From the NCBI RefSeq assembly GCF_001186125.1, contig NW_014040077.1:1-40286 (forward strand): a DNA stretch of 40,286 nucleotides, written 5' to 3'. The number at the start of each line of letters is the position of its first letter. Position 1 is the stretch's first letter. This DNA comes from Sphaeroforma arctica JP610 (taxonomy: Eukaryota). Made by a program: the position numbers and the translations under genes. The notes under the pieces are model-generated. The model was given only the letters and a program-made list of their open reading frames with translations, searched no databases and was not told where the DNA came from. Of this stretch, positions 3,840 to 39,000 are shown in pieces.

Positions 3840-4199
3840 ATTGACAGAAATGTTTTTACAATCACTTGAAATATGGATTCTTTTGTCATGATGTTCATCA
3901 TCTTTATATACATCACGCGTGTAGCCGTATACAAAACTGCGAAAGTCGAATGAAGTATTTTACTATTTTACAAAATGAATATCTAAAAAGAGTATACCGA
4001 ATAAAATTTAATCACCACTATTTCGTTATCTGCTATATAACATTCATATTTTGCTTTTTCTATTCATCAAAGAGAGAAAATACTCGGCGATAAAAATTTA
4101 TAGAAAATATCACGTAATGAAGTAAAGTTCAATAGATTAGAAATTTAGAGTTAAGTACACAAAGGACTAAAGTAAAAATTACTGAAATGAGCGAACATT

Positions 4200-12520: not shown

Positions 12521-12990
12521 TTAGCTTTCCCTAGATCTGTTTTCGGGTGAAGCGAGTGGAACGTCGCTGAGCAGACCAGAAGTATGTCGCAAATGCGTGG
12601 GCCGTGGAGTAGTTTTGGCTAGAATATCGGCCTGATTGTCGTATGAGGAGAAATAGTTGGCTTGAATAATACCGGCATGTTGGAGTTCTTTGTTATGATG
12701 CACCCGAATATCGATGATATGTTTCAAGTGTTTGGTCGGACCAGTAGATGCGATGGCGTGGATGGCTGATTTTTTTATCACGGTAGGCTATAGTTGAAGA
12801 AAGCGCAATAGTTTTGAATGTTTTACAACCACTGAATATATTTTACAGCCTCTGATGCGGTTAAATTCGGCAGTACTGGTGGACAGTGTGGGTTGGCGTT
12901 TGACTTTCCACCCGACAAGGATGCAGCTGATGCGAAGGATATATCTGATGGTTGAGCGGCGGGTGTCGAAGAAGGCGGCATAACCAGCAC
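12521..12990 (-). pseudogene. Copia RNase H domain
   Basis: Manual translation AGYAAFFDTRRSTIRYILRISCILVGWKVKRQPTLSTSTAEF, then ORF 12521-12781 SAIHAIAS..TKHLKHIIDIRVHH..QADILAK. Confidence 0.88.
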
Positions 12991-13408
12991 TAGGGATAAT
13001 ATTATTTATTTCAAAACAAAATTATAAGATATAATGTATGTCTATTATAATGTATGAACATATGGTATGGCTCTCATAGCCGTTGTAGTGGTTCGGGAAA
13101 GATCGATGGGAAGAAGTGGTCTGGAAATTTCCATTTGAAGCTTGGGCCAAGTGAGTTGACGATGGAGGATATGCGCTGAGTCAATTCGGGCCGGTGCTGA
13201 CAAAACACTGATACCATCGAATGTACCATGTATTCGCTTGCTGACCTACTAAGTAGCGTACCCACCTCTGTGGTACGGATGGGGTCTGCGCCGTGTAGTG
13301 CCGTGGAATGGGATAGTGCAGAGTACGAAATACCGAGTAGGACCAGGCTATCCGTCATAATTCGGTCGAGGAGCAAGAATGGAGGTGAGCCAATGCCGCA
13401 CCAGACCA
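12991..13408 (-). mobile_element. Unclassified ~420-bp insertion X, copy 1 (ORF 3' end plus AT-rich 3' UTR)
   Basis: Highly similar to 22765-23165. Encodes ...HRPELTQRISSIVNSLGPSFKWKFPDHFFPSIFPEPLQRL*, followed by an AT-rich tail with AATAAA. Interrupts copia just before the RNase H (D)ADYA-like motif. Confidence 0.65.
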
Positions 13409-13475: not shown

Positions 13476-14051
13476 TTATTTGGTTTGAACCGAAATTTGG
13501 AAGCAGTACTTCAACAGCGTGATTAACCCGGGTATAGGGAACATCTGTTGATGTGTCAGAGACGGGTGATCAGTGTTTTCAGTAATTAACTTACTTATGT
13601 GCGTTAGCTTAGTAGTCTCGGACGTAAATTCGGGTTTGCCACTTGAGCTTGCCTTCTCTTCTGGTTCCATCATAGGTTCCTTCTGAGATTTGTTCTTGTC
13701 CCCTATAATTAGGGTCTCCCTAATAATTGGGAACTCTTCTTTCTGAGTTTTGTCAGAAGAATGGGTTGGGGCGTCTTGAGACGTATCCCTTGTCTCACTT
13801 CTTGGCTTCGTAAATGCAAGCTTTGAAGTTGAGGCAATAATTGGCCCTCCGACTCTGTCAGTGGGAGTAGTCTCCTTAATCGGAGTGGCTACATCCTTAT
13901 CTGAAGCATTGTCCTTTTGACTATAATTGTCGGAGGCAAGTGCTTCGGCTACAGTGCGGTTAAACGCATCAGCAGCGGCAGCGATTTCTCTCTCTATCTT
14001 CTTCTTTTCAGCTCTATGCATCTTAGAAGGAATATTGTCTTTCTTGGTCAT
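13476..14051 (-). pseudogene. 5' fragment of gag/ORF1 of gypsy-family element C (truncated)
   Basis: 191-aa low-complexity ORF (MTKKDNIPSK..) starting ~130 bp downstream of LTR 14179-14948. The layout parallels element A, where MTKSNKK follows the LTR. Confidence 0.6.
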
Positions 14052-14178
14052 AATCTTAACCTATGACAACTAGCTTGTCTCTTAAAGGACTAGCTTGGAC
14101 AAGAGAACTTTTGTGGTAGTTAATCTACCTTGACGCTAAAGTAGTCTAAGTAATTAATACTTTTGCTAACTTTAAATG

Positions 14179-14948
14179 TGTAAGATTCGGTCTATTGAGA
14201 CGATATTAACGCCTTAGAGTAAATAAATGCGTAGATAAATTCTAAGTATCGTGAAATTATCAAAGCAAATAAACGAAATGAAACTTTTAGTAAAGTTAGG
14301 TATGCCTCGTGAAAACAGCAATACTCTGAGGGATTGTGAGGCTGAGACATTGCCTATATATAATCCTCTCAGTACTGTTTCCGCCGAAGGGATTTTATTT
14401 AGTGTTTCGTTGTCGCTCTAATAGAAACTATGGTATGTTTCATTGGGGCGAATCTGAGAGACTCATAAAATCCTGTCTTTAGAAACAAAAATAGAAAAAA
14501 AAGGAAAAATACACTTGATGTCCTCAGTTATTGTCTTAACCAATAACTTGCCACTTATCAAGAATTACCGACTTAGCCTTCATCAGACTGGCACATCTGG
14601 TTGGCTGATCGGAGGATCAACTAGGTAACGTTAATAGTCCCTAGAAACCTATATTCGGTTGAGCCATCTCGCTACCGAAGTATTCAGATCTAAATAAAGT
14701 TGGAAAGTAGATATAGTTCTATTAATAGAACTAGACCAACTCTTATGTTTGGTATTTTACTAGGGCCTTTTAATGGCCTCGTCCAAATATCTGATATGTA
14801 AAATGGAAAAGGTATTAATTTATAAAACCTTTAAAACCCATTTAGGAAACTTAAGTTCCTCGTACTATTAAGAGTACATTTATAATTTACGTACTGCTTA
14901 AGAGTACGTTTATAACACAGAGTCTAATGTGGAGGCCCGGCTATTACA
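14179..14948 (-). repeat. LTR of family C (770 bp; 5' LTR of truncated element C inserted in the integrase of element A)
   Basis: TGTAA...TTACA termini. Reverse-complement homolog of 33503-34844 and 35353-36084. TATATATA box near 14355-14362. The right flank resumes the element A integrase. Confidence 0.85.
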
Positions 14949-15240
14949 ATGCAACATCAAACACGTGACAGACATATTTATCCTTCGTGTGTTCGGACGT
15001 GGGTAGTTCAACCAAATCAATGATAACCGGCGCCACGACTCGTCTTCTGATACGCTGCGTAGAGGTGCGTATCCGTAGCGCTTGATCCGGTTAACTTCGC
15101 AGTTGCTACATTCGTGATACACCTGAGATATATATTGCTTGAGGTTCGGGTGTACGATTCCGTACCTCTTGCAATCTATATCAGTTCTAACCTTATCCAT
15201 GTGCTTACGAGCATGATTTTGTCTTAACCACTTCAGAATC
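14949..15240 (-). pseudogene. Gypsy A integrase N-terminus (HHCC zinc finger and start of DDE core)
   Basis: ORF 14910-15554 contains ILKWLRQNHARKHMDK..LKQYISQVYHECSNCEVN..APLRSV..WRR. Truncated by LTR C. Confidence 0.85.
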
Positions 15241-15669
15241 GCCTCCTGTGATTTACTTGTTACATCGAAATCAGGAGGTGAGGATTCCACCGCGTCATCA
15301 CCTGGACTCGAAGACTCGTCTTGTCCAATATCGCCTAAAGCTTTTACATCGTGAATCCGACTAATGTTTGATATATCCATTAGTTGGATCACATGATCAT
15401 ATACCTCGGGAAAGTCATTCATCAATTGCTTAAGCAATCGAGTTTCTGCTTGGTATGCAGTTTCCCTGTCAGACCGTATTTGTTGTAGAAGGCTTTCGCT
15501 AGTGATGCGCTCCTCATTGATTCCCTTGAATTTGGCTGTATCTCGGTAACACATACTGCAGGTGCTTGTGTTGTCCCAGTCTCTGATTGAGACTTAGGAT
15601 TCAAGAGTGGAATCTTGGTTTCCTCCATCTTCTGTTTGAAAGTCTCGGATGGTGTCCACTTGGTTGTTC

Positions 15670-16080
15670 CAACTGGACCTATTCGACATATAATAGTATG
15701 TCGCCAAGGCGTCTTATGGAATGCACGGGTACCCTGGTAGAGAAAAGTATCTACCTTTCTATCTACATAGATCGGCTCACATTGTATCATCGAGATCAAC
15801 TGTGGTAGCCATTTATCTGAGTGTCTTAGGGGACAACACAACGTGATGGTACCATCTTGAATATGTACATAATTTAGCAACTGTGGTATTAATAACCATG
15901 GAGGATTTGCCCAGGCATTCTCATTAGACAAGTCAATCTGGAATCCATCTCCTTTCGGATGTTCCAGTGTCCGGTACCTCGGCAGTTGTGCATTATGATG
16001 AGCGGCAAACATATCTATGGTATGTAGTCCATGTATGTTGTCTGCGATCTTAAACCACCTAGGATTGACCATCCAATCCG
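15670..16080 (-). pseudogene. Dam-like N6-adenine DNA methyltransferase domain (DIRS-type) in gypsy A pol
   Basis: DWMVNPRWF (~16078), IDMFAAHHNAQLPRY (16004-16018 for IDMFA), DGF, WANPPW (NPPW 15896-15907), TLCCP..WLPQL. Lies in the same ORF (15422-16498) as RNase H. Confidence 0.88.
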
Positions 16081-16139
16081 TAGCTAGTAACTCCCTAACC
16101 ATCTTATTAAGTCTGGTACGAAGTGAGACAACATGTCGG

Positions 16140-16500
16140 GTAAGTGATTGTGAATACCCGGTATATGTGTCATGCCACCGACTGACTAACTGTGAGTTAG
16201 GTTTCATCTTCTTTAGGTGTTCCAATGACTTCTGATCACATAGCACATCAAAGTGTGTGCCATATAGATAATCTTTAAAATGAGTGAGTGCAGTAACAAT
16301 AGCCAAAAGCTCTTGTTGCACGGTTGGGTAATTGATCTGAGACGAATTCATAGCTCTGCTAAAGAACTGTACATTTCCCGGTTTCCCATCAATCATTTGA
16401 TACAGAACGCCGCCGAGTGTCATGTCGGATGCATCTGTTGCTACCATAAATGGAATACCATCCTTTGGTGGCTGGACTACTGGTGCCTGTTGAACCACTG
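16140..16500 (-). pseudogene. Gypsy A RNase H
   Basis: FMVATDASDMTLGGVLYQ..FFSRAM..NYPTVQQELLAIVTALTHFKDYLYGTHFDVLCDQKSL. Confidence 0.92.
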
Positions 16501-16537
16501 TTTTGAGCTGCTTAAATGCGTCATCACAGTCTTTGGT

Positions 16538-17330
16538 CTACAGCCCGCCTAGTTTGCCTTTATGACATCTCAAATGTCCAAAGGGCTTTAAATATCTTGC
16601 CAGGTGTGGTACTCTGTTAGACAAAAAGTTCCCGAATCCGCACATGCTGTTGACATCCTTACCCGTGGTAGGAGTTCTCCAGTCTAGCAAGTGTCCGACC
16701 ATCCCGGGATCGATCATGATTCCATCCCCGGATACTCGGTAACCCAACAGTTGAATCTCGTTAACACCGAAGTGACATTTCTTACTGTTGATCTTAAAGT
16801 TGTGCTTGTTGAGTCTGTCTAGAACATCTCGCGCAACCTTGTCGTGCTACTCTTTGGTTTTGGTGAATATCACAATGTCATCAATGTATACTTGTACATT
16901 GTCCATGTCCATAGACAAGTCTTGCATAATTTGTTGAAAGAACGCAGGTAACATGTGTAACCCAAAGGGGGCACCTTTGAACGAATACTGCTGACCCTCC
17001 CAGGTAAAGGTGAAATACTTCCGATGTGGTCGGTAGATCTTCATCTGGTGGTAGCCCTGCGTCATGCCGATAGCGGAGAATATCTTAGCTCCCTCCATGC
17101 GCCTGAGTAGTTCGTTTATCCTTGGTAAGTGAAAATTGTGTGTCGGTATCAAAGCGTTAATTGGGCTCATAACCAAACACACTCGAACTTTCGAAGTGTC
17201 CCGTCAGAGTTGAATTGGTCGACGGCTAAAAGCACTAGGTTGACGGGAGTCGGTTCATAGTTGACTGCGATCACTCCGTCATCTAACCATGCTTCAACCT
17301 GTTCCCGTACGACCTGCTCATGATGCCATG
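16538..17330 (-). pseudogene. Gypsy A reverse transcriptase
   Basis: LPRINELL..IFSAI..QGYHQ..FTW..PFGL..PAFFQ..YIDD (16877-16888), then LGYRVSGDGI..GFGNF. Confidence 0.93.
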
Positions 17331-17579
17331 CAACATAAAAACGTGTAGGACACTTTAGCTTCGAGAAATCTACTCTCGTCAGGTCTAGACTAATGTATCC
17401 GTTATTGAATTTGAATTTAGCCCAGTCCATGATCCGAATCTTGTCATTCTCGAAAATCAAGTCCTTGAGTTTCTCTGTAAAGTGAGGGATCATCTCCTTC
17501 ACAGTTTTCGAAGGTTTACATTCTGGTTTCAACAAATTGTCGTCCGACTGATCCTTCTGTGGTTCAATGTTAGTAGGTA

Positions 17580-17890
17580 AGCCTGTAATTGTGATACCTA
17601 ATGACAATAAATCACCCATACCTACTATGAGATCATAGTCGGCTGAAGTGTTACATATGACTGCCTTAGTAACTGTAGTACGTTGGTCTGTCAATGTAAA
17701 CCTAAGATCGATTGCCATTTCTCTGCAAGTGATCTCTCTTTCATCAGCCAGTTTCAACATAGTTGGCTCTGACCTACGAGTAACGTCTGTGATTTTACAG
17801 AATCTAGAGGATATACATGAAATTTGAGAGCCCGGATCTAACAACGCTTTTATTTCATGTCCGTTAACTCGTACGGCAAGGATTACACGC
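17580..17890 (-). pseudogene. Gypsy A aspartic protease
   Basis: VRVNGHEIKALLDPGSQISCIS..LADE..YDLIVGMGDL. Confidence 0.9.
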
Positions 17891-20748: not shown

Positions 20749-21649
20749 TGTAAAAGTCGGTCTCCTCTAGGCTGACTATACGATATCAATACGTTTACGT
20801 TAATAAGACAATACGATAAACGTTAAAATGCAAAATGTTAAAAATAAGTTTAGCTTCAGCCCTTGGTAGTGAGCAAAAGATTAGGGGATTATAGACTGAG
20901 ACTATTGTCTATATGCTCTGCTCTAATCACTCACTACTTCGGCCTAGATTTATTTATGTTTTAGTTACTAAGATTAGATATCATTTCATTGGACGCATAT
21001 TTACATTTCACGCCTCGAAACAATTATCTACTCAAAATAACCAATAAAATAATCCCTAAGTCCAACTTAAGAAAAGAAAAAAGGAAATCAAAACACCAAG
21101 CTGGTGCAGTATATATCTGCAGCTAAACCCCATCACTTGGTACCTAGCTCCCCATCCCATATAAGGCATAGACGGGCACATCTAGTTGGCTGGCTAGGAG
21201 GAATCAAAACCAGGTTGTCCTAAATTCTAACAACTCTGATCATGTCCTTTTCTCAGTGGATTATCTTGCTCTGAGATTATTATCGATTATACCATAGGTT
21301 TGTACCAACAACCATTTCATGCCTGAGACCCTCTCTCATGGTACTCCCGTTAATTAGAGATTCTCAAGGTGTCACTTTCAGGTGTCAGATTTGTATCATT
21401 CCTATATTCTGTACAAATCTAATTTCAGTGGAAAAAAACCAATCTATATTTGGAAAACCACCTAATTGTCCACAGTAAAGTCCCATACTCTACTGAGTAC
21501 TATCACATATTCAGAATCTTAATATCTCAATTATTGTTCATGTCCAATACATTAAACGTATTCCAGTATTATAAGTATAAACGATAATACGTCAATACGT
21601 TTATAATATACGTTAACTGTGCAACTACTATTAGGAACCCGCTGATGCA
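20749..21649 (-). repeat. 5' LTR of gypsy A (~901 bp)
   Basis: Begins TGTAAAAGTCGGTCT on +, like LTR C TGTAAGATTCGGTCT. Shares blocks GGGATT..CTGAGAC..CTATA and GGCACATCT(A/G)GTTGGCTG with LTR C. Ends ..GATGCA at 21649, where copia sequence resumes. Confidence 0.75.
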
Positions 21650-21769
21650 GGTAAAGTGGCTGGTGGTGAACTTGTGGCTATCCGGGCAGACAGGGCAGAG
21701 ACAGCCGTCGGTGCGGTAGTCGAGCATTAGTGATGGCATCAGCGACTAGAGGGTTATTTTGAAAACGGT

Positions 21770-22690
21770 ATGTCAAGCCAAGATGAGGAGTCTATTTAAG
21801 ATACTGGAGTACGCGAAGGCCAGCTTGCCAATGTTGCTATAACGGGTTGTGCATGTAGCGTGCAGCAATGCGTGTCAACACCGAGGATATTGTTATGTAT
21901 CAATGAGTTCTCGGTATGCACATTTAAATGCAGAACCGGTGCTTTGAGAAACTGGGTCCAATGTGGCGAATGTAGGAGCGGGATGGCAGTTTGTCATGTC
22001 GAATCTCGAGGGCTTTCTTGATCTTATTATCTTGTCTGAGACTGATAGTGTCGTGAGTTGTGAGGACACGAACACTTATTTGCCTTTGCAGGTCGCCGAG
22101 ATCCTTACAACTAAATTCATGTTAGAGAAGAGACTAAACGCCGAGATAAAATTGATGGTGTTACCACAGAAGAATGTTTCCGGGTTTGCCATAAATAGGC
22201 AAAGGTCTGAAGCAGCTTGAACAAACCCCATGGCAAGAAGTTTAGATCGGATGAGTTCGTGCCATAATCGGCTCAGCAGTTTCAGGCCGTATAAACTTTT
22301 CTTCAGTTTCATAATTTGATCATCGGGGAGGCCGGTGGTGAACGAGCCAGAGGGGGTTTTATGTAGATTGACTGGTCGATATTAGCATAGAGATGAGCGT
22401 TGTCGACGTCGAGTTGTTCGGCATGTCATCCGGCAGAGACGGCAATGGCAGGTAGATGCATATGTCTCGTTGTAGTTAGGCAGAATTCGTGTTTTCGACT
22501 AAACCATCGACCATTTTTATCCTACATATCCATTTCCTAGTGACAGTGAAAGCGTCGTCGTGAATGTCATCAGGATGAATGAGTTCACAGTACATGCCGG
22601 CCCTACGAAGACTATCGAGTTCACGTTTGAATGATTCGCGCCAAAGATCAGCATCTTCCCCCTTTATGGCGGCACGGAGGGTAGTTGGGG
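21770..22690 (-). pseudogene. Copia reverse transcriptase (decayed, internally deleted)
   Basis: Manual translation: PTTLRAAIKGEDADLWRESFKRELDSL, QLDVDNA, MKLKKSLYGLK..W..L..MGFVQAASDLCLF, YRELI, HWQAGLRVLQYLK*TPHLGLTY. Confidence 0.9.
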
Positions 22691-22765: not shown

Positions 22766-23200
22766 AGGAATAAAATTATTTATTTCTAAAAAGATAAGAT
22801 ACAATGTATGTATGTTACAATATATGGCTCTCATAGCCGTTGTAGTGGTTCGGGAAAGATCGATGGGAAGAAGTGGTCAGTAAATTCCCGTTTGAAGCTT
22901 GGGCCAATTGAGTCGACGATGGTGGATATGCGCTGAGTCAATTCGGGCCGGTGCTGACAAAACACTGATACCATCGAATGTACCATGTATTCGCTTGCTG
23001 ACCTACTAAGTAGCGTACCCACCTCTGTGGTACGGATCGGGTCTGCGCCGTGTAGTGCCGTGGAATGTGTTAGTGCAGAGTGCGAAATACCGAGTAGGAC
23101 CATGTTATCCGTCATAATTCGGTCAAGGAGCGAGGATGGGGATGAGCCAATGCCGTACCAGACCACAACGTTTGGGCACTAGAGGGTAAAGAAATGTGAG
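22766..23200 (-). mobile_element. Unclassified insertion X, copy 2
   Basis: Near-identical ORF 22831-23166 to that at 13074-13408. Candidate 7-bp TSD TGTTGAT at 22759-22765 and 23201-23207. Confidence 0.6.
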
Positions 23201-24399
23201 TGTTGATTGGAGTGGCGAGATCGTGTATGTGGTCGTCTTAATCAAGGATGTTCGAGGCTGTGGAGAGCGGCACTGGTGGTGGTACGAGCATGTTGAAGAA
23301 CATCTCGTCTGTACTGTTTGTCGGCTTTGTATTGTTTATGAGCATGTTTAACATGAGCTAATACTCGCTGATATTTATCGCGCAGGGTGAGTTCCTTGGA
23401 CGTGGTGTCCATGGAAGCGTCGGAGAGTGAGGAAGAATGAAGATAGTGAACGTGACGATAAATGTTCTAGAGATCTGTAGCCCAAGTGACGTTTGGAGAG
23501 CGTGTGGGGGGAATGTTGAAAGGCGAGATATCACTGGATTAAGGGAACGGAGGGCTCCCCTGGCTGCTGAGGGGTGGGAAGTGTGGAAGTAGGCTTCCCT
23601 GATTGCTGCGTAGCGGGTGTCATAGAAGGTACCCTGGGTGACTGTGTGGTGAGTAGGGGACCGTCCCCTGGTTTCGTGACATCTGTGGGGGTCAATAGCT
23701 TCCCTGGTTGCATGACACCGGTGGGTGTGGAGGGAATGTGTTGTGCCACTGGTTGGTGAAGGACGGGGAGTGTGAAATTAGGCTCCCCGGGTTGCTGCGT
23801 AGCAGGTGTCATAGGAGACACCCTGGGTGGCTGTGTGGTGGGGTTAGGGGACAATTTCCTGGTTGCGTGACATGCGTGTATCTAACGAGCGCGTTGACGA
23901 GTGATGCGCACGTTGCCCGGTTTGAAGAAGGCCCTTTAAGGTACGGGATGTCCGGTGTTTAGCAAGGTGGCTGGCAAGCAGGTTGTTGATGATATTTTCT
24001 AAAGAAGGGACAGAGGTAGTGATCGAGAAGGAAGGTGTGGGGAGAAGTGGGGTGAGCGATGGTGTGGGAACTGGCGTGTGTGTAGGAAGGGCATAGTCGG
24101 GATGTAGAGGAGATATTGGCGGAGAAGTGATGGGAGCAGGGTGAACGGTGGTGGCCTGGAGTGACGGGTGTTGGAAGTAACGGTGCAGTGCTGTTGGAAG
24201 AGGATGGTGTAGATATGGTATTAGGGTTGAGTTGGAGCGAAAGTGTAAGTTTGCGTATGGTGGGGACATGGCGGACGGGGTATGGAAAAAGGGACTGGCG
24301 TCGTCCCAGCCATGGTCCACGTCGGGAAGAGTTCTTAACATCGCGGGAACGGCATTTTTTCTTCTTCCATACTTTAGACTGAGAATGAGGAAATCGTCA

Positions 24400-25611
24400 T
24401 TGTACCTGGATGAGCGATCGTGACCGAGGTATACGCCGAGTATTGTGGGGTCATCGAGTTTGCCCTGTTGGTCCTGATTCACGAATGCGACTTGACAACC
24501 ATATACATGTATGTTCTTAAGGCGAACGGTGGGGAATTCGCCGTAAAATATTTCCCGGGATGGTTATTGGTCAGAGTTGTGCTTGATAAGTTGGTCAGTC
24601 TTAGTTATAGTCTCGAGTAGAATAGCTTCAGCCCACATACATTCGTGTCGTTGAGCATTTTTGAGCATGTAGTTCATGATGTTCTTGATACTGCCGTTGG
24701 TGCGCTCTATCAAGCCGTGAAGGACAGGGGAGTTAGTGGGGATAAACGTGACCTTAATGTGAGACAGGGTATTGATACGTTGGGAATTCTTGAGAGATAA
24801 AATCGCCGCCCTGGTCGCACTTAATTTCGGTGAATTTACTGAGATATGTTTTCCCGATATCGGTATAAAACTGGGCCAATGTGTGGTACGCATCATTCTT
24901 GATCCTGAGTGGGTAGACGAACCACGTACTTGATGTTAGATGTGTACCCATTGAGAGAGGAGGAGAGGCCAGTTCTAAATCTACGTGAAAGACAGTACCG
25001 AGAGGTGGAAGATAAGTGTGGTCTTTGTGGGTGTGCGAGATAGGCTCGCTGACGCATTTTGCCTGTACCACAGGGTGTGCAGAAACTCAGCGGACGAGGG
25101 TGAGCGAGAACATCGGCTTCGGCGGACAGTAGCTTGGTAATGGGCGGGACAGCAGATGTAGTGTTGCCAACACGTGCGATGTTCAACATGTGAATTGAAT
25201 TGGAAGAGAGTTTGTATATAGTTGCGTGTGTTTGGTGTGAGAGGAAACACCATGGTGATGAGGACGTTTTCTCGTTCGAATTTGAGAAGTGTCTTTCGCC
25301 ATGTTGGCTTGCGAAAAGGAATGTTACCATACAAGTGTTTGTTGTGTTGACGCCATGATTGCGTGAATATATCGTGTAAGGGTGTGCCAGGGTCGAGACT
25401 GCAGTATCTGGGAACCTGAGCGTTGTGAGCCGTAGCGAAAAGGTCGATATCAAGCGGTCCAAAGACATCAACTACATATGTTTGGAAAAGGTCAGAGTGG
25501 AGTTTCTAGTCGTCATATGAAGGTGAAGGTATCGGAGATGGTGTGATATTGCTGTTGTGTAGGATGCCGCATTTTGACATCCGGATGTGCGTGACCAAGC
25601 ATTGTATGCCA
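24400..25611 (-). pseudogene. Copia integrase (GAG-pre-integrase zinc finger, DDE core, SH3-like), interrupted by an MTase domain
   Basis: WHTMLGH 25591-25611, CTPCGTGK 25058-25081, VFHVDL, EIKCDQGGDF, GLIERTNGSI..WAEAI, GKLDD..GVYLGHD. Frameshifted. Confidence 0.88.
25200..25514 (-). pseudogene. Dam-like N6-adenine DNA methyltransferase domain (DIRS-type) within copia pol
   Basis: Manual translation in the frame of ORF 24981-25334, extended upstream: DD*KLHSDLFQTYVVDVFGPLDIDLFATAHNAQVPRYCSLDPGTPLHDIFTQSWRQHNKHLYGNIPFRKPTWRKTLLKFERENVLITMVFPLTP. IDLFA at 25434-25448, NIPF at 25314-25325. Confidence 0.85.
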
Positions 25612-25759
25612 GTTGGCGAGTGTGTGTGTACTAAGTGGGGCTAGTGCGTGTTGGCCGGCAGTGTTTTGGACGCGATTGATAGTATGACCGGCTTGTTGGA
25701 TATGGCATTCGGTAGGTTATGATTCGTCGACCGCAGGTGGAAAGTAAATAATGTAGCGT

Positions 25760-25980
25760 GACGTTGAAGGAGTTGAACGGAGAGTATACTTTGGGTGTCT
25801 GTGGGCATGATGAGGACGCGGCCAAGACCTGGAAGAAGGCCGTGTTGGAGTAGAGTAATTTGCCTTTTGTCAGGGAACTCGACGATAAAATTGCCGTGTT
25901 CGAAACTACTAACGCCGAATGTGGTAGCGCGGATATGTACCATGGCCCCAGAGTCGATGAGGGATGCCCAGAGATGATCA
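25760..25980 (-). pseudogene. Copia aspartic protease
   Basis: WASLIDSGAMVHI..G..L..VLIMP..SILSV in ORF 25641-26096. Confidence 0.8.
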
Positions 25981-26056
25981 GCGGTTGAGGGTCCAGTTGT
26001 AGCTGTCTGTAGAGTATGAAGACGATAGCGTCTAACAGGCGGAGGTATAAAAGACT

Positions 26057-26327
26057 TGGTACAGTGGGAGTGTCGAGTAGATGGTATGTGAACCACCGGT
26101 TACAGGGGCGCCGTAATAACACTGCATGCATGCAGTATCGTTAGGACCAACACGGGTACATTTGCTATATTTGAGGTAAGAGCGGTCGACACCTGGTACA
26201 GTGGGAGTGTCGAGTAGATAGTATGTGAACCACCGGTTACAGGGGCGCCGTAATATCACTGCATGCATGCAGTATCGTTAGGACCAACACGGGTACATTT
26301 GCTATATTTGAGGTAAGAGCGGTCGAC
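26057..26327. repeat. 137-bp tandem duplication in the copia gag zinc-knuckle region
   Basis: TGGTACAGTGGGAGTG...GCGGTCGAC occurs at 26057 and 26194 with only a few mismatches. Confidence 0.92.
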
Positions 26328-27000
26328 GGGACAGGTGCGACCGATGTAGTCGTGTGATGGCCAAGGGTCAAACATAGGGAATATTTGCGTTCATGGTGTG
26401 TGCTGTGGGGAATCTTGGTGTGAAGGATGTTGAGGCTGGAAGGAATGGGCTGGGCGATAAGATGATGGTCGCCTTCAAATTTCAAGGTGAGGTGATAGAC
26501 TTCCTCCAGACTGATTGTATCCGTGCCCTTGGCAAATACTGTAGAACGTAGTAGGTTATAGTTATCGCTACGACTGTATAATAAAGCACAGATAAAATAC
26601 TTATCTGGTATTACTTCACCCACGTCGAGTAACTCTTGGCGTATTTCCTCGAGTGTTTGCATGCTTGTTTCAGTAGAGCCCGTAGCAGTGAAGTATGTTA
26701 AGCGTTTTATACCATCTCAGAAGCGACCATGGCTGCCAGTGTTATTAGTGATGCAGATGTAATTGAAGAACTCAGAGAGGGATTTAGAAATGTGACCCTT
26801 GTAGACGGCGTTGATTAATTTATCACTAATAGAGATATTGAGTATGCGACGGTTTTTGGCATCGGCGAGCATGTCTGCGCCTTCACCGATGGACGTCATG
26901 ACATCGAGAATATAGACTATGCAGTGTACCAAAATGTTCATGTTCCATTTTGAGACCAGTGTACCAGATGCCAAAATCGGCGTACCCTTTTGTAGTTCGT
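26237..27000 (-). pseudogene. Copia gag
   Basis: LEEIRQELLDVGEVIPDKYFICALLYSRSDNYNLLRSTV (copia gag-type L..G..I.D.....LL.SL...Y pattern). N-terminal PIL..W..I motif and degenerate CCHC knuckles (YSLCLTLGHH, SKCTRVGPNDTAC). Confidence 0.8.
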
Positions 27001-30490: not shown

Positions 30491-30648
30491 TACTTGGAGG
30501 GAGGCGAGAGAGGGGCGCTTAACTTGGAGGGAGGCGAGAGCGGGACGCTTAACAGCCGTAGTCTTAACGGGACGCTTAACTGCCGTAGTCTTAACGGGAC
30601 GCTTAACAGCCGTAGTCTTAACGGGACGCTTAACAGCCATAGTCTTAA
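30491..30648. repeat. Minisatellite: 2 x 30 bp (ACTTGGAGGGAGGCGAGAGCGGGACGCTTA) then ~4 x 27 bp (AACAGCCGTAGTCTTAACGGGACGCTT)
   Basis: Directly visible near-perfect units. Confidence 0.92.
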
Positions 30649-31564: not shown

Positions 31565-31759
31565 CAATGGCCTCTGTGCAATGCTTGTATTATATTTTCT
31601 TAGACAAAGTATACTTAGACTTTATAAGTTACTCGGTTACTCTATTACGTTTCGGTTTAGGTCCTTGAGGTCCCTGATAGTGGATGGGACATTTCTTAGT
31701 GCCTTTAGGAGGCACATACATTCCATGATCTTTTAAACTTGTGATCCGATATTAAGAGC

Positions 31760-32740
31760 ACTTGAACCATCACCAAAGTTAACTTCGTAAGTTCCGCTCT
31801 TCTTATTGGCCACTGAAATCTTGAATGGTCTAATGTATTCAGCTGTATGCACAGTTGTATCGGAGTTGCGAGCCATGATGATGACTATATCGCCCACCTC
31901 AAACTCGACTATCTTCTTCGAATCATTTCATCGCTTGTATCTTTTCTTGAGTGCGATATCCTTCATCTCTCTCAAGCTAGGAAAGACAAAATCTCTGGTA
32001 CGACGTATCTTCTCTAACCATGGTAGCACATGATCTTCCTGAGAATTCTTGTTGAAAAGTACTAGTAGTTCACTATAACGGCCTCTGAAATAGTGAGCGG
32101 GTGTTCTATCAGTGACTGTATCCGGTGTCTCGTTCATTTGTGTTTGTACCCAGTTAATTGAGTACATGTCACAATCGTCTAGTAACGCTCCACACATGAA
32201 CTTCTTCATCTTTCTGTGCGTACCTCGATTGCACCTTGTGTCTGATGCTTATATAGTACACCCATCTTTTGGCATGATCCCGCAACAAGTAATAGTGTTG
32301 TCATGACGTCTCCTGTAACTCACTACCGTTGTCGGGTCGATACATACAGTAGCTGGCCAGTCGAAATCTGCGAAACATTTATATATGCACTCAGCCGCAG
32401 TTTGTATTGATTTGTCTTTCAGATATAATAGTACATTCTATTTTGAAGCAACATCAAACACTGACAGACATACTTATCTTTCATGTGTTCGGACGTGGAT
32501 AGCTCAACCAAATCAATGACAACCCTGCGCCATTGCTCCTCTTCTGATACGCTTTGCAATTGTGCCTACCCGTAGCGCTTGATTCGATTAACTTTGCAGT
32601 CGTTGCATTCGTGATACACCTGAGATATATATTGCTTAAGCTTTGCCGTACCTTTTACAATCTTTCTCAGTCCTAACCTTATCCATGTGTTTAAGCGCAT
32701 GAATCTGCCTTAGCCACTTCAGAATATCTTCTTCCGGTGA
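31760..32740 (-). pseudogene. Gypsy B DDE integrase with HHCC finger and GPY/F-like module
   Basis: IHALKHMD..YHECNDC, VIDLVEL..FDVASK, MNETPDTVTDRTPAHYFRGR, FEVGDIV..YIRPFKI..GTYEV. Confidence 0.85.
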
Positions 32741-33169
32741 ACTTGCTATATCAAAGTCTGGAGGTGATGATTCCACTACTACATCACTTGGACTTGAAGA
32801 CTCGTCTGGTCCAATTTCGCCTGAAAGATCGGCCGTGTGAATTCTACCAATGTTCGCCCTGTCCATTAGTTGAGTTACATGATCGTATACATCTGGAAAA
32901 TCGTTCATCAACTGCTGAAGTAATTTTGTCTCGGCTTCGTATGCAGTTGCTCTGTCAGAACATATCTTCTTGTAGGATACTTTTGCTAGTGTTGAGTTCC
33001 TCTTTGATTCTGTAGGATCAGATTGTACCTCAGTGACGCATACTGCAGGTGCGTGTGTTGTCGCAGCCTCTCATCGAGACTTAGGTATCAAGAGTGGAAT
33101 CCTGCATTCTTCAACCTAACGTTTGAAGGTCTCCAATTGTGTCCATTTGGATGTTCCAACTAGTCCTAT

Positions 33170-34915
33170 TCGACATATAATTGTATGTCGCCAAGGCGAA
33201 TTTTGGACTGCACGGGTACCCTGGTAGAGGACAGTATCTATCTCTCTATCCACATATATAGGCTCACATTGTAACATCTATGTCAACTGTGGGCGCCATT
33301 TATCTGAATGTCTTAGGGAACAACACAGCGTGCTGGTAGCATCTTATATAGTACATAATTTAGCAACTGTAGTATCAACAACCACTGTGAATTCGCCCAT
33401 GTGTTCTCGTCTGTTAAGTTGATTTGAAACGCATGCCATCTGGATGTTCCAGAGTCCGGTATCGTGGCAGTTGCGCATTATGATGAGCAGCAAACATATC
33501 AATGTAATAAGCCGAGCCTCCACATTAGACTCTTATGTATAAACGTACTCTTAAGCAGTACGCAAATTATAAACGTACTCTTAATAGTACGAGGAACTTA
33601 AGTCTCCTAAATGTACTCTTAATAGTACGAGGAACTTAAGTCTCCTAAATGTACTCTTAATAGTACNNNNNNNNNNNNNNNNNNNNNNNNNNNNNNNNNN
33701 NNNNNNNNNNNNNNNNNNNNNNNNNNNNNNNNNNNNNNNNNNNNNNNNNNNNNNNNNNNNNNNNNNNNNNNNNNNNNNNNNNNNNNNNNNNNNNNNNNNN
33801 NNNNNNNNNNNNNNNNNNNNNNNNNNNNNNNNNNNNNNNNNNNNNNNNNNNNNNNNNNNNNNNNNNNNNNNNNNNNNNNNNNNNNNNNNNNNNNNNNNNN
33901 NNNNNNNNNNNNNNNNNNNNNNNNNNNNNNNNNNNNNNNNNNNNNNNNNNNNNNNNNNNNNNNNNNNNNNNNNNNNNNNNNNNNNNNNNNNNNNNNNNNN
34001 NNNNNNNNNNNNNNNNNNNNNNNNNNNNNNNNNNNNNNNNNNNNNNNNNNNNNNNNNNNNNNNNNNNNNNNNNNNNNNNNNNNNNNNNNNNNNNNNNNNN
34101 NNNNNNNNNNNNNNNNNNNNNNNNNNNNNNNNNNNNNNNNNNNNNNNNNNNNNNNNNNNNNNNNNNNNNNNNNNNNNNNNNNNNNNNNNNNNNNNNNNNN
34201 NNNNNNNNNNNNNNNNNNNNNNNNNNNNNNNNNNNNNNNNNNNNNNNNNNNNNNNNNNNNNNNNNNNNNNNNNNNNNNNNNNNNNNNNNNNNNNNAAAAG
34301 AGCTTGTATTAAATTATTTAAAATACAAATAAAAACCAATGTATTATCTCAATTGATCTTGATATTTTAGACTGACCGGAGGCCGTATTTCTACAAATAT
34401 AGGTTTCTAGGGACTATTAACGTTACTTAGTTGATCCTTCGATAAGCCAACCAGATGTGCCAGTCTGATGAAGGCTAAGTCGGTAATTCTTGAGAGTGGC
34501 AAGTTATTGGTTAAGACAATAACTAAAGACATCAAGAGTATTTTTTTTAAATTTCTTTTTTCTAAAGATAGGATTTTATGAGTCTCTCGGATTCGCCCCA
34601 GAATAGAGCGACAACGAAACACTAAATAAAATCCCTTCGGCGGAAAAAGTACTGAGAGGATTATATATAGGCAATGTCTCAGCCTCACAATCCCTCAGAG
34701 TATTGCTGTTTTCACGAGGCAAACCTAACTTTATTAAACGTCTCATTTCGTTTATTTATATCGATATTTACACGATATAGAATTTACCTACGCGTTTATT
34801 TATTCTAAGGCATTAGTATCGCCTTTATTAGACCGAATCTTACATCAATGGTATGTGGACACACATATGTTGTCTGCAATCTTGAACCACCTAGGATTGG
34901 CCATCCAATCGTAGA
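33170..34915 (-). pseudogene. Gypsy B adenine MTase domain, split by a solo LTR within the IDMFA motif
   Basis: HHNAQLPRYRTLEHP and WANSQW (decayed NPPW) at 33380-33485. The N-terminal part (DW..NPRWF) lies at 34845-34915. Confidence 0.82.
33503..34844 (+). mobile_element. Family C LTR insertion (solo LTR with internal gap), 4-bp TSD TCAA
   Basis: TCAA-TGTAATAAGCCGAGCCTCC...GACCGAATCTTACA-TCAA. Removing it restores colinearity with A. A 38-bp tandem repeat precedes the N-gap. Confidence 0.88.
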
Positions 34916-35352
34916 TAGTGACTCCCGGACCATCTTATTGAAGTCTGGTACGCAGCGTGAAAGCATATCCGGCAAGTGATTATGTACCCCCGGTATATGT
35001 GTAAATCCAAATGGAAATTTCGCGATCGTATCGTGCCATCGACTGACCAATGTCAATTGGGTTTCATGTTCTTTAAATGTTGCAACGATTTCTGATCGCA
35101 CATTACATTGATATATGTACCGTATAGGTAATCCTAAAAATGAGCGAGTGCAGTCACAATAGCCAATAGCTCTTGTTGCACCGTCGGGTAGTTGATTTGT
35201 GACGAACCCATAGCCCTACTAAAGAATTGCACGTATCTCGGTTTCCCATCTATCATTTGATACAGCACGCATCCTATCGCCATGTCGGATACATCTGTAG
35301 CCACCATGAACGGAACTCCATCCTTTGGTGGCTGCACTACGGGAGCTTGCTG

Positions 35353-36084
35353 TGTAAAAGCCGGGCCTCCACATTATAATCCTGTATTATAAACGTACTC
35401 TTAAAAGTACGTAAACTCAGTTTTCCTTAAATGGTTTTCAACGGTTTTATTAATTAAATACCTTCTCCATTTTACATATCAGATATTTGGACAAGGCCAT
35501 TAAATGGCCTCAGTAAAATATCAACTTTATGATTTGGACTAGTTCTATTAATAAAACTATATTTACTTTCCAAATCTATTTCTATCTGAATACTTCGGTA
35601 GCGAGATGGCTCAACCAAACATAGGTTTCTTAGGACAATTAGCGTTGCTTAGTTTATCCTCCGTTCAGCCAACCAGATGTGCCAGTCTGATGAATACTAG
35701 TCGGTATTCCTGGATAAGTGGCAAGTTATTGGTTAAATAATACAATAATTATGGACATCAAGAGTATTTTTTATTTTTATTTTTATTTTTTCTATTTATT
35801 TTTCTAAAGATAGGATTTCATGAGTCTCTCGGATTCGCCCTAACGAAACATAGTCATAGTTTCTAGTAGAGTCCCTTCGGCGGAAACAGTACTGAGAGGA
35901 TTACATATAGGCAATGTCTTAGCCTCACAATCCCTCAGAGTATTGCTGTTTTCACGAGGCATACCTAACTTTACTAAAAGACTCATTTCGGTTATTTACT
36001 CTTTGATTTTACTACACTTAGACTTGACCTAAGCGTTTAATTACTCTAAGGCGTTAGTACCGCCTTGATAGACCGAAACTTACA
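35353..36084 (+). mobile_element. Family C solo LTR (732 bp), 4-bp TSD GCTG
   Basis: GCTG-TGTAAAAGCCGGGCCTCC...GACCGAAACTTACA-GCTG. Interrupts B between RT and RH. Confidence 0.92.
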
Positions 36085-39000
36085 GCTGGACCATTGTTAT
36101 GAGCTGCTTAAGGCATCATCACGTTCGTTAGTCCATAACGCCCCCAATTTACCCTCATGGCATCGTAAATGTCCAAAAGGTTTAAAATAGGTTGCCAAGT
36201 GAGGTACTCCATCTGACAGAAAGTTGACGAAACCGCTTATACTGTTCACATCCTTCCCTATAGTGGGTGTTCTCCAATCTAGCAAGTGTTCGACCTTTCC
36301 GGGTTCAATCGTGATGCCGTCCCCGGATACACGGTACCCCAACAGCTGAATCTCGTTTACGCCAAACTGACATTTTTTTGCTGTTTATTTTAAACTTGTG
36401 CTTATTTAGCCTAGCTCAAACTTCTCGCACAACTCTACCATGCTCCTCCTTGGTCTTTGTAAATTACACAATATCGTCGATGTATGCCTATACGTTATCC
36501 ATGTCTCTAAACAGATCTTGCACGATTTGTTGAAAGAAGGCTGGTAACATATGAAGACCAAATGGTGCTCCCTTGAAGGAATACTGCTGTCCATCCCAAG
36601 TGAAGGTAGAATACTTACGATGTGGTTTGCGTATCTTCATTTGGTGGTAACCCTGCTTCAAATCGATGGTCGAAAACATTTTCGCACCTTCCATTCTTCT
36701 CGTGAAAGTTGTGTGTAGGTATAAAGGTATAGGAGCGTTTAAAGGGCTCATACTTAAGTAAGCATACGCGAACCTTTTTCAACGTACCATCTGAGTTGAA
36801 CTGGTCTACTGCCAAGAGTGGTAGATTGACTGGAGTTGGTTTGTAATTCGCAGCAATCACTCCAGCTTCTAACCAAGCCTTAACCTGTTCTCTGACTACC
36901 TGTTCATGACGCTATGCTACGTAGTTGCGCGTCGGACATTTCAACTTCGAAAAGTCTGCTTTTGTCCAGTCTAAGCTCACATATCCGTTGTTGAATTTGA
37001 ACTGAGCCCAGTCAGTAATCTTGATCTTGTTATTCTTGAAGATAAGATCCTTTAGCTTCTATGTGAATTGAGGTATCATTTTTCCTACAGTCTTAGAAGA
37101 AGGCTTATATACAGGCTTCAGCAGATTGTCATCTGACCGATCCTTCTGTGGGTTAATATTTGTCGGTAGGCCGATGACTGTTATACCTAAAGACAAAAGA
37201 TATATCCCCACTATCAAACCATAGTCTGGCGATGTGTTACAGACAACTGCCTTTGTGACCATTGTCCGTTGATCAGTGAGGGTAAACCTCAAATCTACGG
37301 CCATGTCACGACACGTAATCTGCCTTTTGTCAGCTAGTTTTAACATAGTAGGCTCTGATTTACGAGTTACATCAGTTATCTTACATAATCTCGATGATAT
37401 ACACGAACTTTACGAGCCTGGATCTAACAACGCTTTTATTTCATGCCCGTTAACCCGTATATCGAGAACGACACGCTCATCTTGCGATGCATACTTTTGT
37501 TTCAGTGCCAAGATCCGGTAAGATTGTCACTTAACTTCACATTCGGTTGCACCTTACACATGTGTTTGTGGTAACCTTCAGTCTTTGCGCAAGTCTGCAC
37601 ACTTCGCAATAAAATGTTTACATTTCTATGCGTGCCTGCCATCCCAGCGACCGTTCGGCTCATGTTGGGTCATGTGCCAGCTGCAATCCGTTTCAGCACG
37701 GTCCTTGATCTCTTTATACTTTGGCTTAAGAGGCTCAGCTGCCTGAGCGGATTTGTTGCCCAAGGTCCCGCAAGTGTTGACATTGCTCTTGTGACCATCA
37801 GTACCTTGCACATGCTTGTTCTTCTGGCCACCTTTATCTCCACCTTTGTTCCCTTTATTGTTTTCCGTTTCCGTATGAGAGTCTCGACCAGTACCTGGTT
37901 CTTCATTCGTGTTGGGTACAACCTTCTTACTTGGCTGAACGAATTTCACCACAGAACTCGGGCGTTTGGAAAACGTCTGGTCTACTCTCGAATAAAATTC
38001 AGTCCATGTCCGGTCGGCGAGTTTCATAATACCGTAGGTTGGTCCTTCAATTGAAATCTAACGTACCTTGTCTGGATAAGATTGATGCATGTCTGCGTAC
38101 AATATCTCTGTCTTTTTGGTGATGAGCTGACCAAAAGATTGTTTGTACCCACAACACACACATACTCAGCTTGTCGGATGACATCTCCAGTGTCTGAGCA
38201 CGTGATATATGTATGTCCAGTTCCAAGAGATAATGTGACACTAATGTCCCTTCATCCGGTGGTACCATGATGGATACCAGCAATTCCGGTCTGGGGACTG
38301 TTGAGAACAGATGGACTATCATCTCGCTCTGATCCTTCCACGTCTTCAGCTTTGTTACAGTGGTCTTTGCCTTCTCCAACTTATTATACTTCTAAGATGA
38401 TGGCTTGAAACTCTGTTGCGCTTAAATTTTCAGTAAGCATGATTTGACCAAATTCCTTCAAATGTCTTGATAATAACGCTAAGGTACTCGTATCGATGGG
38501 GTCCTTGCGGTCTTTTCGATTTGGACGATACGTAGTGGGTAGTTTACCTATATCCTTGACAAACTTCATACTGTCCACTGTCTTCTCAGCGTGTATGATG
38601 CGTAGCTCCGTATCGATTTTGGATTGAAAGTGCTTCGCCATAGTCATTCATTCTCAAGCTGGCTTGCTCGATCGTCCCTTGATTCATTGCTAGCGTTGCC
38701 TCCTCTTCCGCATTAAGCATCCCAGCTGTGAAATCAGTAATCTTCTTGTCACTCTTCGAAGTCTCGTCGATTCGTGCGTGCGTCCCCTTCATGCAATGTA
38801 GTCGCTGATCATCATTGTCATCATCGTCCTCCGGGTCCTCACTTTGCGTTGCCGTCGCCCTCGTAGTCTTGGACGTTTTCAACGCTTGACAGACGGCGGC
38901 TGGTAATCGGGTCCTGAAGAGTCTGGTTCCTCAAACTCTGGTGATGATTGACTCCCATCCCCGCTCGAGCTTTTCGACTTCTCTTCCACCTTAAAATTCC

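What the first reader, a model, noticed from the sequence alone, without database searches (positions are those of the whole stretch)
33170..33502. MTase domain shows purifying selection between gypsy A and B
Seen: over HHNAQLPRYRTLEHP the two copies differ at 5 of 15 codons (gca/gcg, ccg/cca, agg/cga, aca/act, ccg/cca), all synonymous. Downstream LRHSDKW, CEPIYVDR, LYQGTRA and PWRHTIICRIG are also retained, whereas the 5' ORF1 regions of A and B are not alignable by eye. Inference: the MTase was functional cargo in both active lineages. NSQW in B is probably post-insertion decay.
Basis: partly seen in the sequence, partly recalled or inferred. Interest (0 to 1): 0.7.

Follow-up and report, generated by a model that had tools for sequence, protein, structure and literature searches.

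The report
Adenine methyltransferase in gypsy and copia
Two broken gypsy retrotransposon copies show that the adenine-methyltransferase-like domain in their polymerase gene was conserved by selection, a recently described arrangement, and a copia-type retrotransposon beside them carries a related domain between the two halves of its likely integrase zinc finger, an arrangement I did not find in print.

Summary
Confirmed, with corrections. Across the whole domain (133 codons) copies A and B differ by 35 synonymous and 30 non-synonymous changes, dN/dS 0.19 (0.11-0.32). The non-synonymous rate (about 0.10) matches the decay estimated from stop codons (0.13-0.15), so amino-acid change during the active phase was likely near zero. 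B's domain is now dead. The unalignable ORF1 is a poor control: synonymous divergence drops sharply at the RNase H/MTase boundary (110 of 179 versus 25 of 97 four-fold sites), so the MTase-integrase half likely recombined recently. Ty3/gypsy elements with this domain (DAM-LTRs) were described in a May 2026 preprint, and this scan met one before on other DNA. What I did not find in print: a decayed Ty1/copia element in the same window carries a related domain between the HH and CC halves of its integrase zinc finger. Four Sphaeroforma arctica proteins are its closest relatives; three show the same copia context. No intact copia copy was found. Both predicted folds match the RNA cap methyltransferase PCIF1 better than Dam. 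Catalysis and substrate are untested.

The parts
33167..33501 (-). Gypsy B N6-adenine MTase-like (DAM) domain, main piece (the finding). Dead: two 1-nt deletions, two stops, motif IV NSQW
34849..34930 (-). Gypsy B DAM domain, N-terminal piece up to motif I, separated from the rest by an insertion
33503..34844 (.). LTR-bounded insertion (TG...CA ends, 4-bp target duplication TCAA, 629 N inside) splitting B's DAM domain
35353..36084 (.). Solo LTR of the same repeat family inside B's RT-RH connection, 4-bp target duplication GCTG
34940..35352 (-). Gypsy B RNase H (decayed)
36087..38760 (-). Gypsy B 3' part of ORF1, protease and RT (decayed)
31739..33166 (-). Gypsy B DAM-integrase linker and integrase (decayed)
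   Evidence: tblastn of intact relatives
15680..16100 (-). Gypsy A DAM domain, open, with motif I (IDMFA) and motif IV (NPPW)
   Evidence: Pfam Dam E 6.4e-4; model pLDDT 90; fold match 6irx Z 10.2
16112..17880 (-). Gypsy A protease, RT and RNase H
16066..16186 (-). Breakpoint in A-versus-B synonymous divergence at the RNase H end / DAM start (likely recombination)
14951..15679 (-). Gypsy A linker and integrase N-terminus, truncated
14179..14948 (.). Third copy of the solo LTR, at the point where gypsy A ends; flanks do not form a target duplication
26240..26716 (-). Copia element: gag
   Evidence: Pfam Retrotran_gag_2 E 5.1e-4
25650..25964 (-). Copia element: protease region (DSGA motif; motif assignment recalled)
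   Evidence: aligns with P0005 and P0004; no Pfam hit of its own
25591..25611 (-). Copia integrase zinc finger, HH half (WHTMLGH; motif recalled)
   Evidence: six-frame translation; same motif in P0004 and P0005
25097..25514 (-). Copia DAM-like domain (IDLFA, NIPF), with one stop at its start and a frameshift near its end
   Evidence: Pfam Dam E 3.9e-4; 57-64% identity to P0003 and P0004
25058..25081 (-). Copia integrase zinc finger, CC half (CTPCGTGK; motif recalled)
   Evidence: in frame with the DAM C-terminal stretch that P0003 covers
24400..25023 (-). Copia integrase core and SH3-like region (frameshifted)
   Evidence: aligns with the rve part of P0004; SH3_retrovirus E 0.001
21750..22650 (-). 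Copia-type reverse transcriptase (frameshifted)
   Evidence: Pfam RVT_2 E 2.3e-4 and 2.2e-3 in two frames

Best explanation
The stretch is the broken adenine-methyltransferase-like domain of a Ty3/gypsy retrotransposon; it was under purifying selection before the copies decayed, and it likely worked as part of the Pol protein by adding N6-methyladenine to the element's own reverse-transcription product. Shown: the domain lies between RNase H and integrase, in frame in two intact relatives; dN/dS is about 0.2; B is dead. Inferred: active-phase dN was near zero, and the MTase-integrase half was exchanged between lineages by recombination. Inferred mechanism: the domain travels with integrase and marks the cDNA or RNA:DNA intermediate, and the host AMT1 enzyme then maintains the mark, giving new insertions permissive chromatin (the model of the 2026 preprint). 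The copia element, where the domain lies inside the integrase zinc finger, would keep it tethered to integrase, which favours a DNA-stage role. Odds: identity and selection about 0.9; catalysis on DNA or hybrid about 0.45.
For: dN/dS 0.19 (0.11-0.32), 0.23-0.28 with transition weighting. Zero-fold sites differ at 27 of 250, four-fold at 14 of 45, P = 0.0009. Stop-codon decay of 0.13-0.15 per site (17 stops in 950 codon pairs) covers the dN of about 0.10 seen in PR, RT, RH and DAM. Intact single-ORF relatives P0001 and P0002 have RT-RH-Dam-IN. Between them DAM is 68% identical, against RT 61%, RH 74%, integrase core 56% and linker 34%. The model is a confident SAM-dependent MTase fold. [quoted passage not shown] Copia context.
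Against: No activity has been shown: heterologous expression in dam-minus E. coli did not raise 6mA. Iyer et al. judged DIRS MTase copies likely inactive. P0002 has CPPW at motif IV in an intact ORF. The closest solved fold is an RNA enzyme, PCIF1 (Z 10.2, against 7.5 for T4 Dam). DAM is only marginally more constrained than the adjacent linker in A versus B (27 of 250 versus 43 of 256 zero-fold sites, P = 0.054). The C-terminal half alone is marginal. Only two decayed copies were compared. No intact copia copy was found.
Confidence: 0.6

Rival explanations
1. The domain is conserved but not catalytic: it binds the element's RNA or cDNA, or acts as a structural partner of RNase H or integrase.
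For: Iyer et al. 2016 consider DIRS copies likely inactive. The E. coli assay was negative. Motif IV varies: NPPW, CPPW, NIPF, and FPPF in several DIRS-like relatives.
Against: Motif I (D-x-F-A) and motif IV are kept across gypsy, copia and DIRS-like copies. DAM-LTR insertions are enriched for 6mA in three species (a correlation only).
Confidence: 0.25
2. The domain is an RNA N6-adenosine methyltransferase like PCIF1, marking the element's genomic RNA (cap-proximal or internal A) rather than DNA.
For: Both models match zebrafish PCIF1/CAPAM best (6irx: Z 10.2, rmsd 3.2, 141 aligned; Z 10.7, rmsd 3.4, 138 aligned; the two models share most alignment rows). Weak Pfam PCIF1_WW hits in 10 of 30 relatives. 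Iyer et al. place DIRS MTases in the PCIF1 clade. No activity on E. coli DNA.
Against: A shared fold does not fix the substrate. The position inside the copia integrase zinc finger points to the DNA stage (inference). Published 6mA enrichment is on DNA.
Confidence: 0.2
3. The low dN/dS only reflects the need to keep the Pol frame open to integrase, plus recent recombination; the domain itself is a passenger.
For: The linker is also below 1 (0.31). DAM versus linker is P = 0.054. The 3' half has a recent common ancestor.
Against: Keeping a frame open does not suppress missense changes. Between the two intact relatives DAM is 68% identical and the linker 34%.
Confidence: 0.07
4. The copia-associated domain is a chance nested fragment of a gypsy or DIRS element, or an assembly error, not copia cargo.
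For: The window copy is frameshifted. No intact copia-DAM polyprotein was found. The S. arctica proteins are gene models whose DNA I could not see.
Against: Single contigs in two runs span 23110-26113 with no difference (one of those runs may be the source of the window). P0004 and P0005 run from protease through the HH motif into DAM, P0021 from the HH motif into DAM, and P0004 goes on to rve; the four proteins lie on contigs of four different lengths. The copia domains form their own clade, 100/100.
Confidence: 0.12

Closest known systems
DAM-LTR retrotransposons, ichthyosporean lineage (Fernandez-Moreno et al., bioRxiv 10.64898/2026.05.21.726589; main text read in full, supplements not seen)
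   Same: Ty3/gypsy organisation with a Dam-like domain in Pol and an Asn-Pro-Pro motif. The lineage is reported from Sphaeroforma arctica, whose proteins are the closest named relatives of the copia domain in this window.
   Different: The main text has no selection test ('purifying' 0 hits) and no copia ('copia' and 'Ty1' 0 hits). Its RT tree used RVT_1 only, whereas copia RT is RVT_2. The recombination break at the RH/DAM boundary is not discussed there.
DIRS1-type retrotransposon MTase domain (Iyer et al. 2016, PMC4738411; passages read)
   Same: Homologous domain, placed directly after the RNase H terminal motif as in gypsy A and B.
   Different: DIRS use a tyrosine recombinase. Here the elements have protease and a DDE integrase, and in the copia element the domain is not next to RNase H.
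PCIF1/CAPAM cap-specific adenosine N6-methyltransferase (PDB 6irx)
   Same: Best structural match of both models; NPPF-like motif IV (PCIF1 motif recalled).
   Different: 11-12% identity; no WW or helical domain; substrate unknown.
T4 and E. coli Dam (PDB 1q0s, 2ore)
   Same: SAM-dependent amino-MTase core; weak Pfam Dam match.
   Different: Lower Z (7.4-8.3), aligned over 109-115 of about 240 residues; Pfam scores below the curated cut-off.

Membership tests
DAM-LTR (Ty3/gypsy) | Ty3/gypsy Pol order PR-RT(RVT_1)-RH-IN | tested here: met
   Pfam on A and on P0001/P0002, tblastn onto A and B
DAM-LTR (Ty3/gypsy) | Dam-like domain in the Pol frame | tested here: met
   In frame in P0001 and P0002 (Dam E 7.4e-6 and 7.6e-5) and in A's 371-aa ORF; all below Pfam's cut-off
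DAM-LTR (Ty3/gypsy) | Asn-Pro-Pro catalytic triplet | tested here: met
   NPPW in A and P0001; NSQW in dead B; CPPW in P0002
DAM-LTR (Ty3/gypsy) | Paired LTRs flanking the element | tested here: inconclusive
   No paired LTRs found for A or B by blastn; both copies are truncated or interrupted
DAM-LTR, ichthyosporean lineage | Clusters with the published Pirum/Abeoforma/Sphaeroforma sequences | not testable with these tools
   Published sequences not available; host assignment is inferred
DAM-LTR (Ty3/gypsy) | Raised 6mA and expression of insertions | not testable with these tools
   No methylation data
N6-adenine methyltransferase | SAM-dependent Rossmann-like fold with motifs I and IV | tested here: met
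   pLDDT 90 and 77.5; top structural matches are amino-MTases. Foldseek gave no E <= 0.001
N6-adenine methyltransferase | Catalytic activity | not testable with these tools
   Published heterologous assay negative
Ty1/copia (second element) | Order gag-PR-IN-RT with RVT_2-type RT | tested here: met
   Retrotran_gag_2, SH3_retrovirus and RVT_2 in that order, each weak; P0004 resembles gag_pre-integrase/Pol_BBD/rve clusters
Ty1/copia (second element) | RNase H after RT, and paired LTRs | tested here: inconclusive
   A copia-like RH stretch at about 12480-12990 by recalled motifs only (no Pfam hit); its link to this copy is unproven; LTRs not mapped
DIRS1-like | Tyrosine recombinase, no protease or DDE integrase | tested here: not met
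   Both elements have protease and integrase regions

The most novel reading that the evidence does not exclude
Ty1/copia retrotransposons of Sphaeroforma captured a PCIF1/Dam-like adenine methyltransferase, probably from a co-resident gypsy DAM-LTR, and inserted it between the HH and CC halves of the integrase zinc finger. It was kept across at least two diverged copia families. This extends MTase cargo to a third retrotransposon superfamily and makes the enzyme an inseparable part of the integration complex.
Probability: 0.6. Interest if true: 0.62.

Novelty: new variant of a known kind. Interest (0 to 1): 0.45.

Why it matters
The gypsy result adds a direct selection test to a class described only in May 2026, and the break at the RH/DAM boundary suggests the MTase moves with integrase as one cassette. 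The copia arrangement, if it holds, shows the cargo crossing retrotransposon superfamilies within one host. It also constrains the open question of what these domains methylate: a domain inside the integrase zinc finger would act at the cDNA or integration stage, while its fold points to the RNA enzyme PCIF1. Both readings can be tested in a culturable protist with published 6mA maps.

Tried and rejected
No whole genome was held, so no family-wide dN/dS was possible. Searches for a long intact copia-DAM protein found none: 0 of 174 candidates and 0 of 7,986 scored; these word-based searches also missed P0004, so the blanks are weak. Foldseek against the PDB gave no match at E <= 0.001. The sequence search of the PDB with alignment A1 was dominated by RT/RH columns; PCIF1 scored only E 0.59. 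No RNA holder was listed for the copia stretch; this is no evidence on expression. No read or contig layout was obtained for the gypsy A stretch, so other copies across the breakpoint are unexamined. Profile comparison of the putative copia RH with A1 was uninformative. Pfam found nothing relevant in five short fragments. LTR pairs for A and B were not found. Base composition does not explain the lower 3' divergence (expected saturation 0.70 versus 0.74). ApT and CpG ratios and GATC counts showed no clear pattern. Literature searches for copia plus adenine MTase listed no paper describing it; most were judged from listings only, and passages were read in PMC5890265, PMC4738411 and PMC11673190. 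Trees: 34 rows, then 29 after dropping 2 long-branch and 3 short rows.

Full report
Setting. The window is eukaryotic DNA with assembly gaps and nested, decayed retrotransposons on the minus strand. Gypsy A runs from about 20,500 to 14,951 and gypsy B from about 39,500 to 31,700. B is interrupted twice by a TG...CA repeat with 4-bp target duplications, and a third copy lies where A ends. No whole genome was held. The closest named relatives of the copia domain are Sphaeroforma arctica proteins, so the host is likely an ichthyosporean (inference).

The observation. The cited codons are as described, except that the last Pro sits beside a 1-nt deletion in B. I set frames from two intact relatives and counted only ungapped, stop-free codon pairs. 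The whole domain (133 codons) gives 35 synonymous and 30 non-synonymous changes, dN/dS 0.19 (bootstrap 0.11-0.32), rising to 0.23 and 0.28 with transition weights of 2 and 4. Without the hand-picked codons it is 0.21. The halves differ: 0.11 for the N-terminal half and 0.36 (0.15-0.91) for the C-terminal half. For comparison, RT is 0.03, RH 0.07, the DAM-integrase linker 0.31 and the integrase N-terminus 0.22. Zero-fold sites differ at 27 of 250 and four-fold sites at 14 of 45 (P = 0.0009), while two non-coding solo LTRs show no phase bias.

Decay. dN is about 0.10 in PR, RT, RH and DAM alike. Over 950 codon pairs A has 3 stops and B has 14, which gives 0.13-0.15 neutral changes per site; the Poisson range of 10-27 stops widens this to roughly 0.07-0.25. 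Decay can therefore account for most or all of dN (inference). Against the intact relatives, 18 of 31 amino-acid differences in DAM are B-derived, 5 A-derived and 8 unresolved; a few of these lie beside B's deletion, where the alignment is unsure. NSQW is B-derived.

Four-fold sites differ at 110 of 179 positions upstream of A 16119 and at 25 of 97 downstream. None of 10,000 permutations gave so strong a break, and the support range is 16066-16186, the end of RNase H. Transitions and transversions are 38 and 72 upstream but 15 and 10 downstream; K2P distances are 1.29 and 0.32; base composition is similar. The simplest reading is that the DAM-integrase half was exchanged by recombination (inference). 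The unalignable 5' part of ORF1 is then no measure of how long the domain was kept in two separate lineages.

What it is. P0001 and P0002 are intact polyproteins with RT, RH, Dam and rve in one frame; P0002 also has the protease by Pfam. Between them DAM is 68% identical (95 of 139), RT 61%, RH 74%, integrase core 56% and the linker 34%. The model of A's domain has pLDDT 90. Its best match among 48,161 chains is PCIF1/CAPAM (6irx, Z 10.2, rmsd 3.2, 141 aligned), ahead of T4 Dam (Z 7.5); Foldseek gave nothing at E <= 0.001.

What is known. bioRxiv 10.64898/2026.05.21.726589 (main text read in full; supplements not seen) describes DAM domains in Ty3/gypsy elements, including an ichthyosporean lineage. 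It reports higher 6mA and expression for those insertions and a negative E. coli assay, and proposes marking of reverse-transcription intermediates with maintenance by host AMT1. PMC4738411 (passages) places DIRS MTases in the PCIF1 clade and considers them likely inactive. PMC5890265 (passages) mentions Dam-like domains only in DIRS. PMC11673190 (passages) names the domain only in a figure legend. The gypsy finding alone is thus a further member of a known kind.

The copia element. A second Dam-like domain lies at 25514-25097 (Pfam E 3.9e-4). Its neighbours are a copia gag, a protease region, an integrase core with an SH3-like tail, and an RVT_2-type RT, in copia order. The domain sits between WHTMLGH and CTPCGTGK, which I read from recalled motifs as the two halves of the integrase zinc finger. 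Single contigs in two of four runs span 23110-26113 with no difference; one of those two may be the window's own source. Of 30 hits in 1.84 billion representatives, the best three are P0003, P0004 and P0005 (57%, 64% and 53% identity); these and P0021 are S. arctica proteins. P0004 and P0005 run from protease through the HH motif into DAM, P0021 from the HH motif into DAM, and P0004 continues into rve. P0003 covers the domain up to the residues just before the CC motif. P0004 resembles gag_pre-integrase, Pol_BBD and rve clusters. The copia domains form one clade (100/100) that groups with the gypsy domains at 92/85 and 91/92, below the tool's bar for firm support and on long branches.

Limits of the copia claim. 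No intact full-length copy was found. The S. arctica entries are gene models whose DNA I did not see. The preprint's main text has no mention of copia, its RT tree used RVT_1, and its cut-off of 1e-5 is likely stricter than these domains reach (E 0.001-0.005, a different search set-up). Its supplements could still include such elements. Six searches listed no paper on copia with this domain; most subscription journals are not covered.

Mechanism. I commit to a Pol-borne methyltransferase that marks the element's cDNA or RNA:DNA intermediate, with host maintenance after integration (about 0.45). Rivals are a non-catalytic binding role (0.25) and RNA methylation (0.2). The link to integrase in both superfamilies, and the exchange of DAM with integrase as one block, favour a DNA-stage role. 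The PCIF1-like fold, the CPPW motif in P0002 and the negative assay count against it.

Verdict. The gypsy arrangement is known; the copia arrangement is a probable new variant. Interest 0.45.

Noticed in passing
window 25514-25097 within 27187-21750: Copia-type element with a Dam/PCIF1-like domain between the HH and CC halves of the integrase zinc finger; same context in three S. arctica proteins.
   Followed up: yes
window 16066-16186 (A): Sharp drop in A-versus-B synonymous divergence at the RNase H/DAM boundary, likely recombination.
   Followed up: yes
window 14179-14948, 33503-34844, 35353-36084: Three copies of a 730-770 bp TG...CA solo-LTR family inserted into both gypsy copies; two copies differ by 11.5%.
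   Followed up: partly
window 22823-23166 and 12991-13408: Very high-copy short repeat (contig depth over 1,000 times its flanks) inside the copia element and again near 13,000.
   Followed up: no
window 21000-21726: Further high-copy repeats between the copia RT and gypsy A ORF1; possibly A's 5' LTR, not shown.
   Followed up: no
window 12480-12990 (-): Copia-like RNase H stretch by recalled motifs; if it belongs to the copia element, gypsy A is nested inside it.
   Followed up: partly
window 24521-25454: In three runs a contig matches both the copia DAM motif I region and the integrase core with unknown sequence between, hinting at another diverged copia-DAM copy.
   Followed up: no
P0002: Intact gypsy polyprotein with CPPW at motif IV; Asn to Cys needs two base changes, so one decay hit is unlikely.
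   Followed up: no
P0023: Unnamed 1,208-aa gypsy polyprotein with chromodomain and a Dam domain whose NIPF motif matches the copia domains.
   Followed up: partly
window 26054-26327 and 30541-30648: 137-bp tandem duplication in the copia gag-PR region; 27-bp tandem array near B's 3' end.
   Followed up: no
window 13476-14060 (-) and 2622-3959 (-): Open frames of 194 and 445 aa without Pfam hits.
   Followed up: no
L001 and L002: Two apparently intact DIRS-like elements (RT-RH-MTase plus a recombinase-like ORF) from metagenome contigs.
   Followed up: partly
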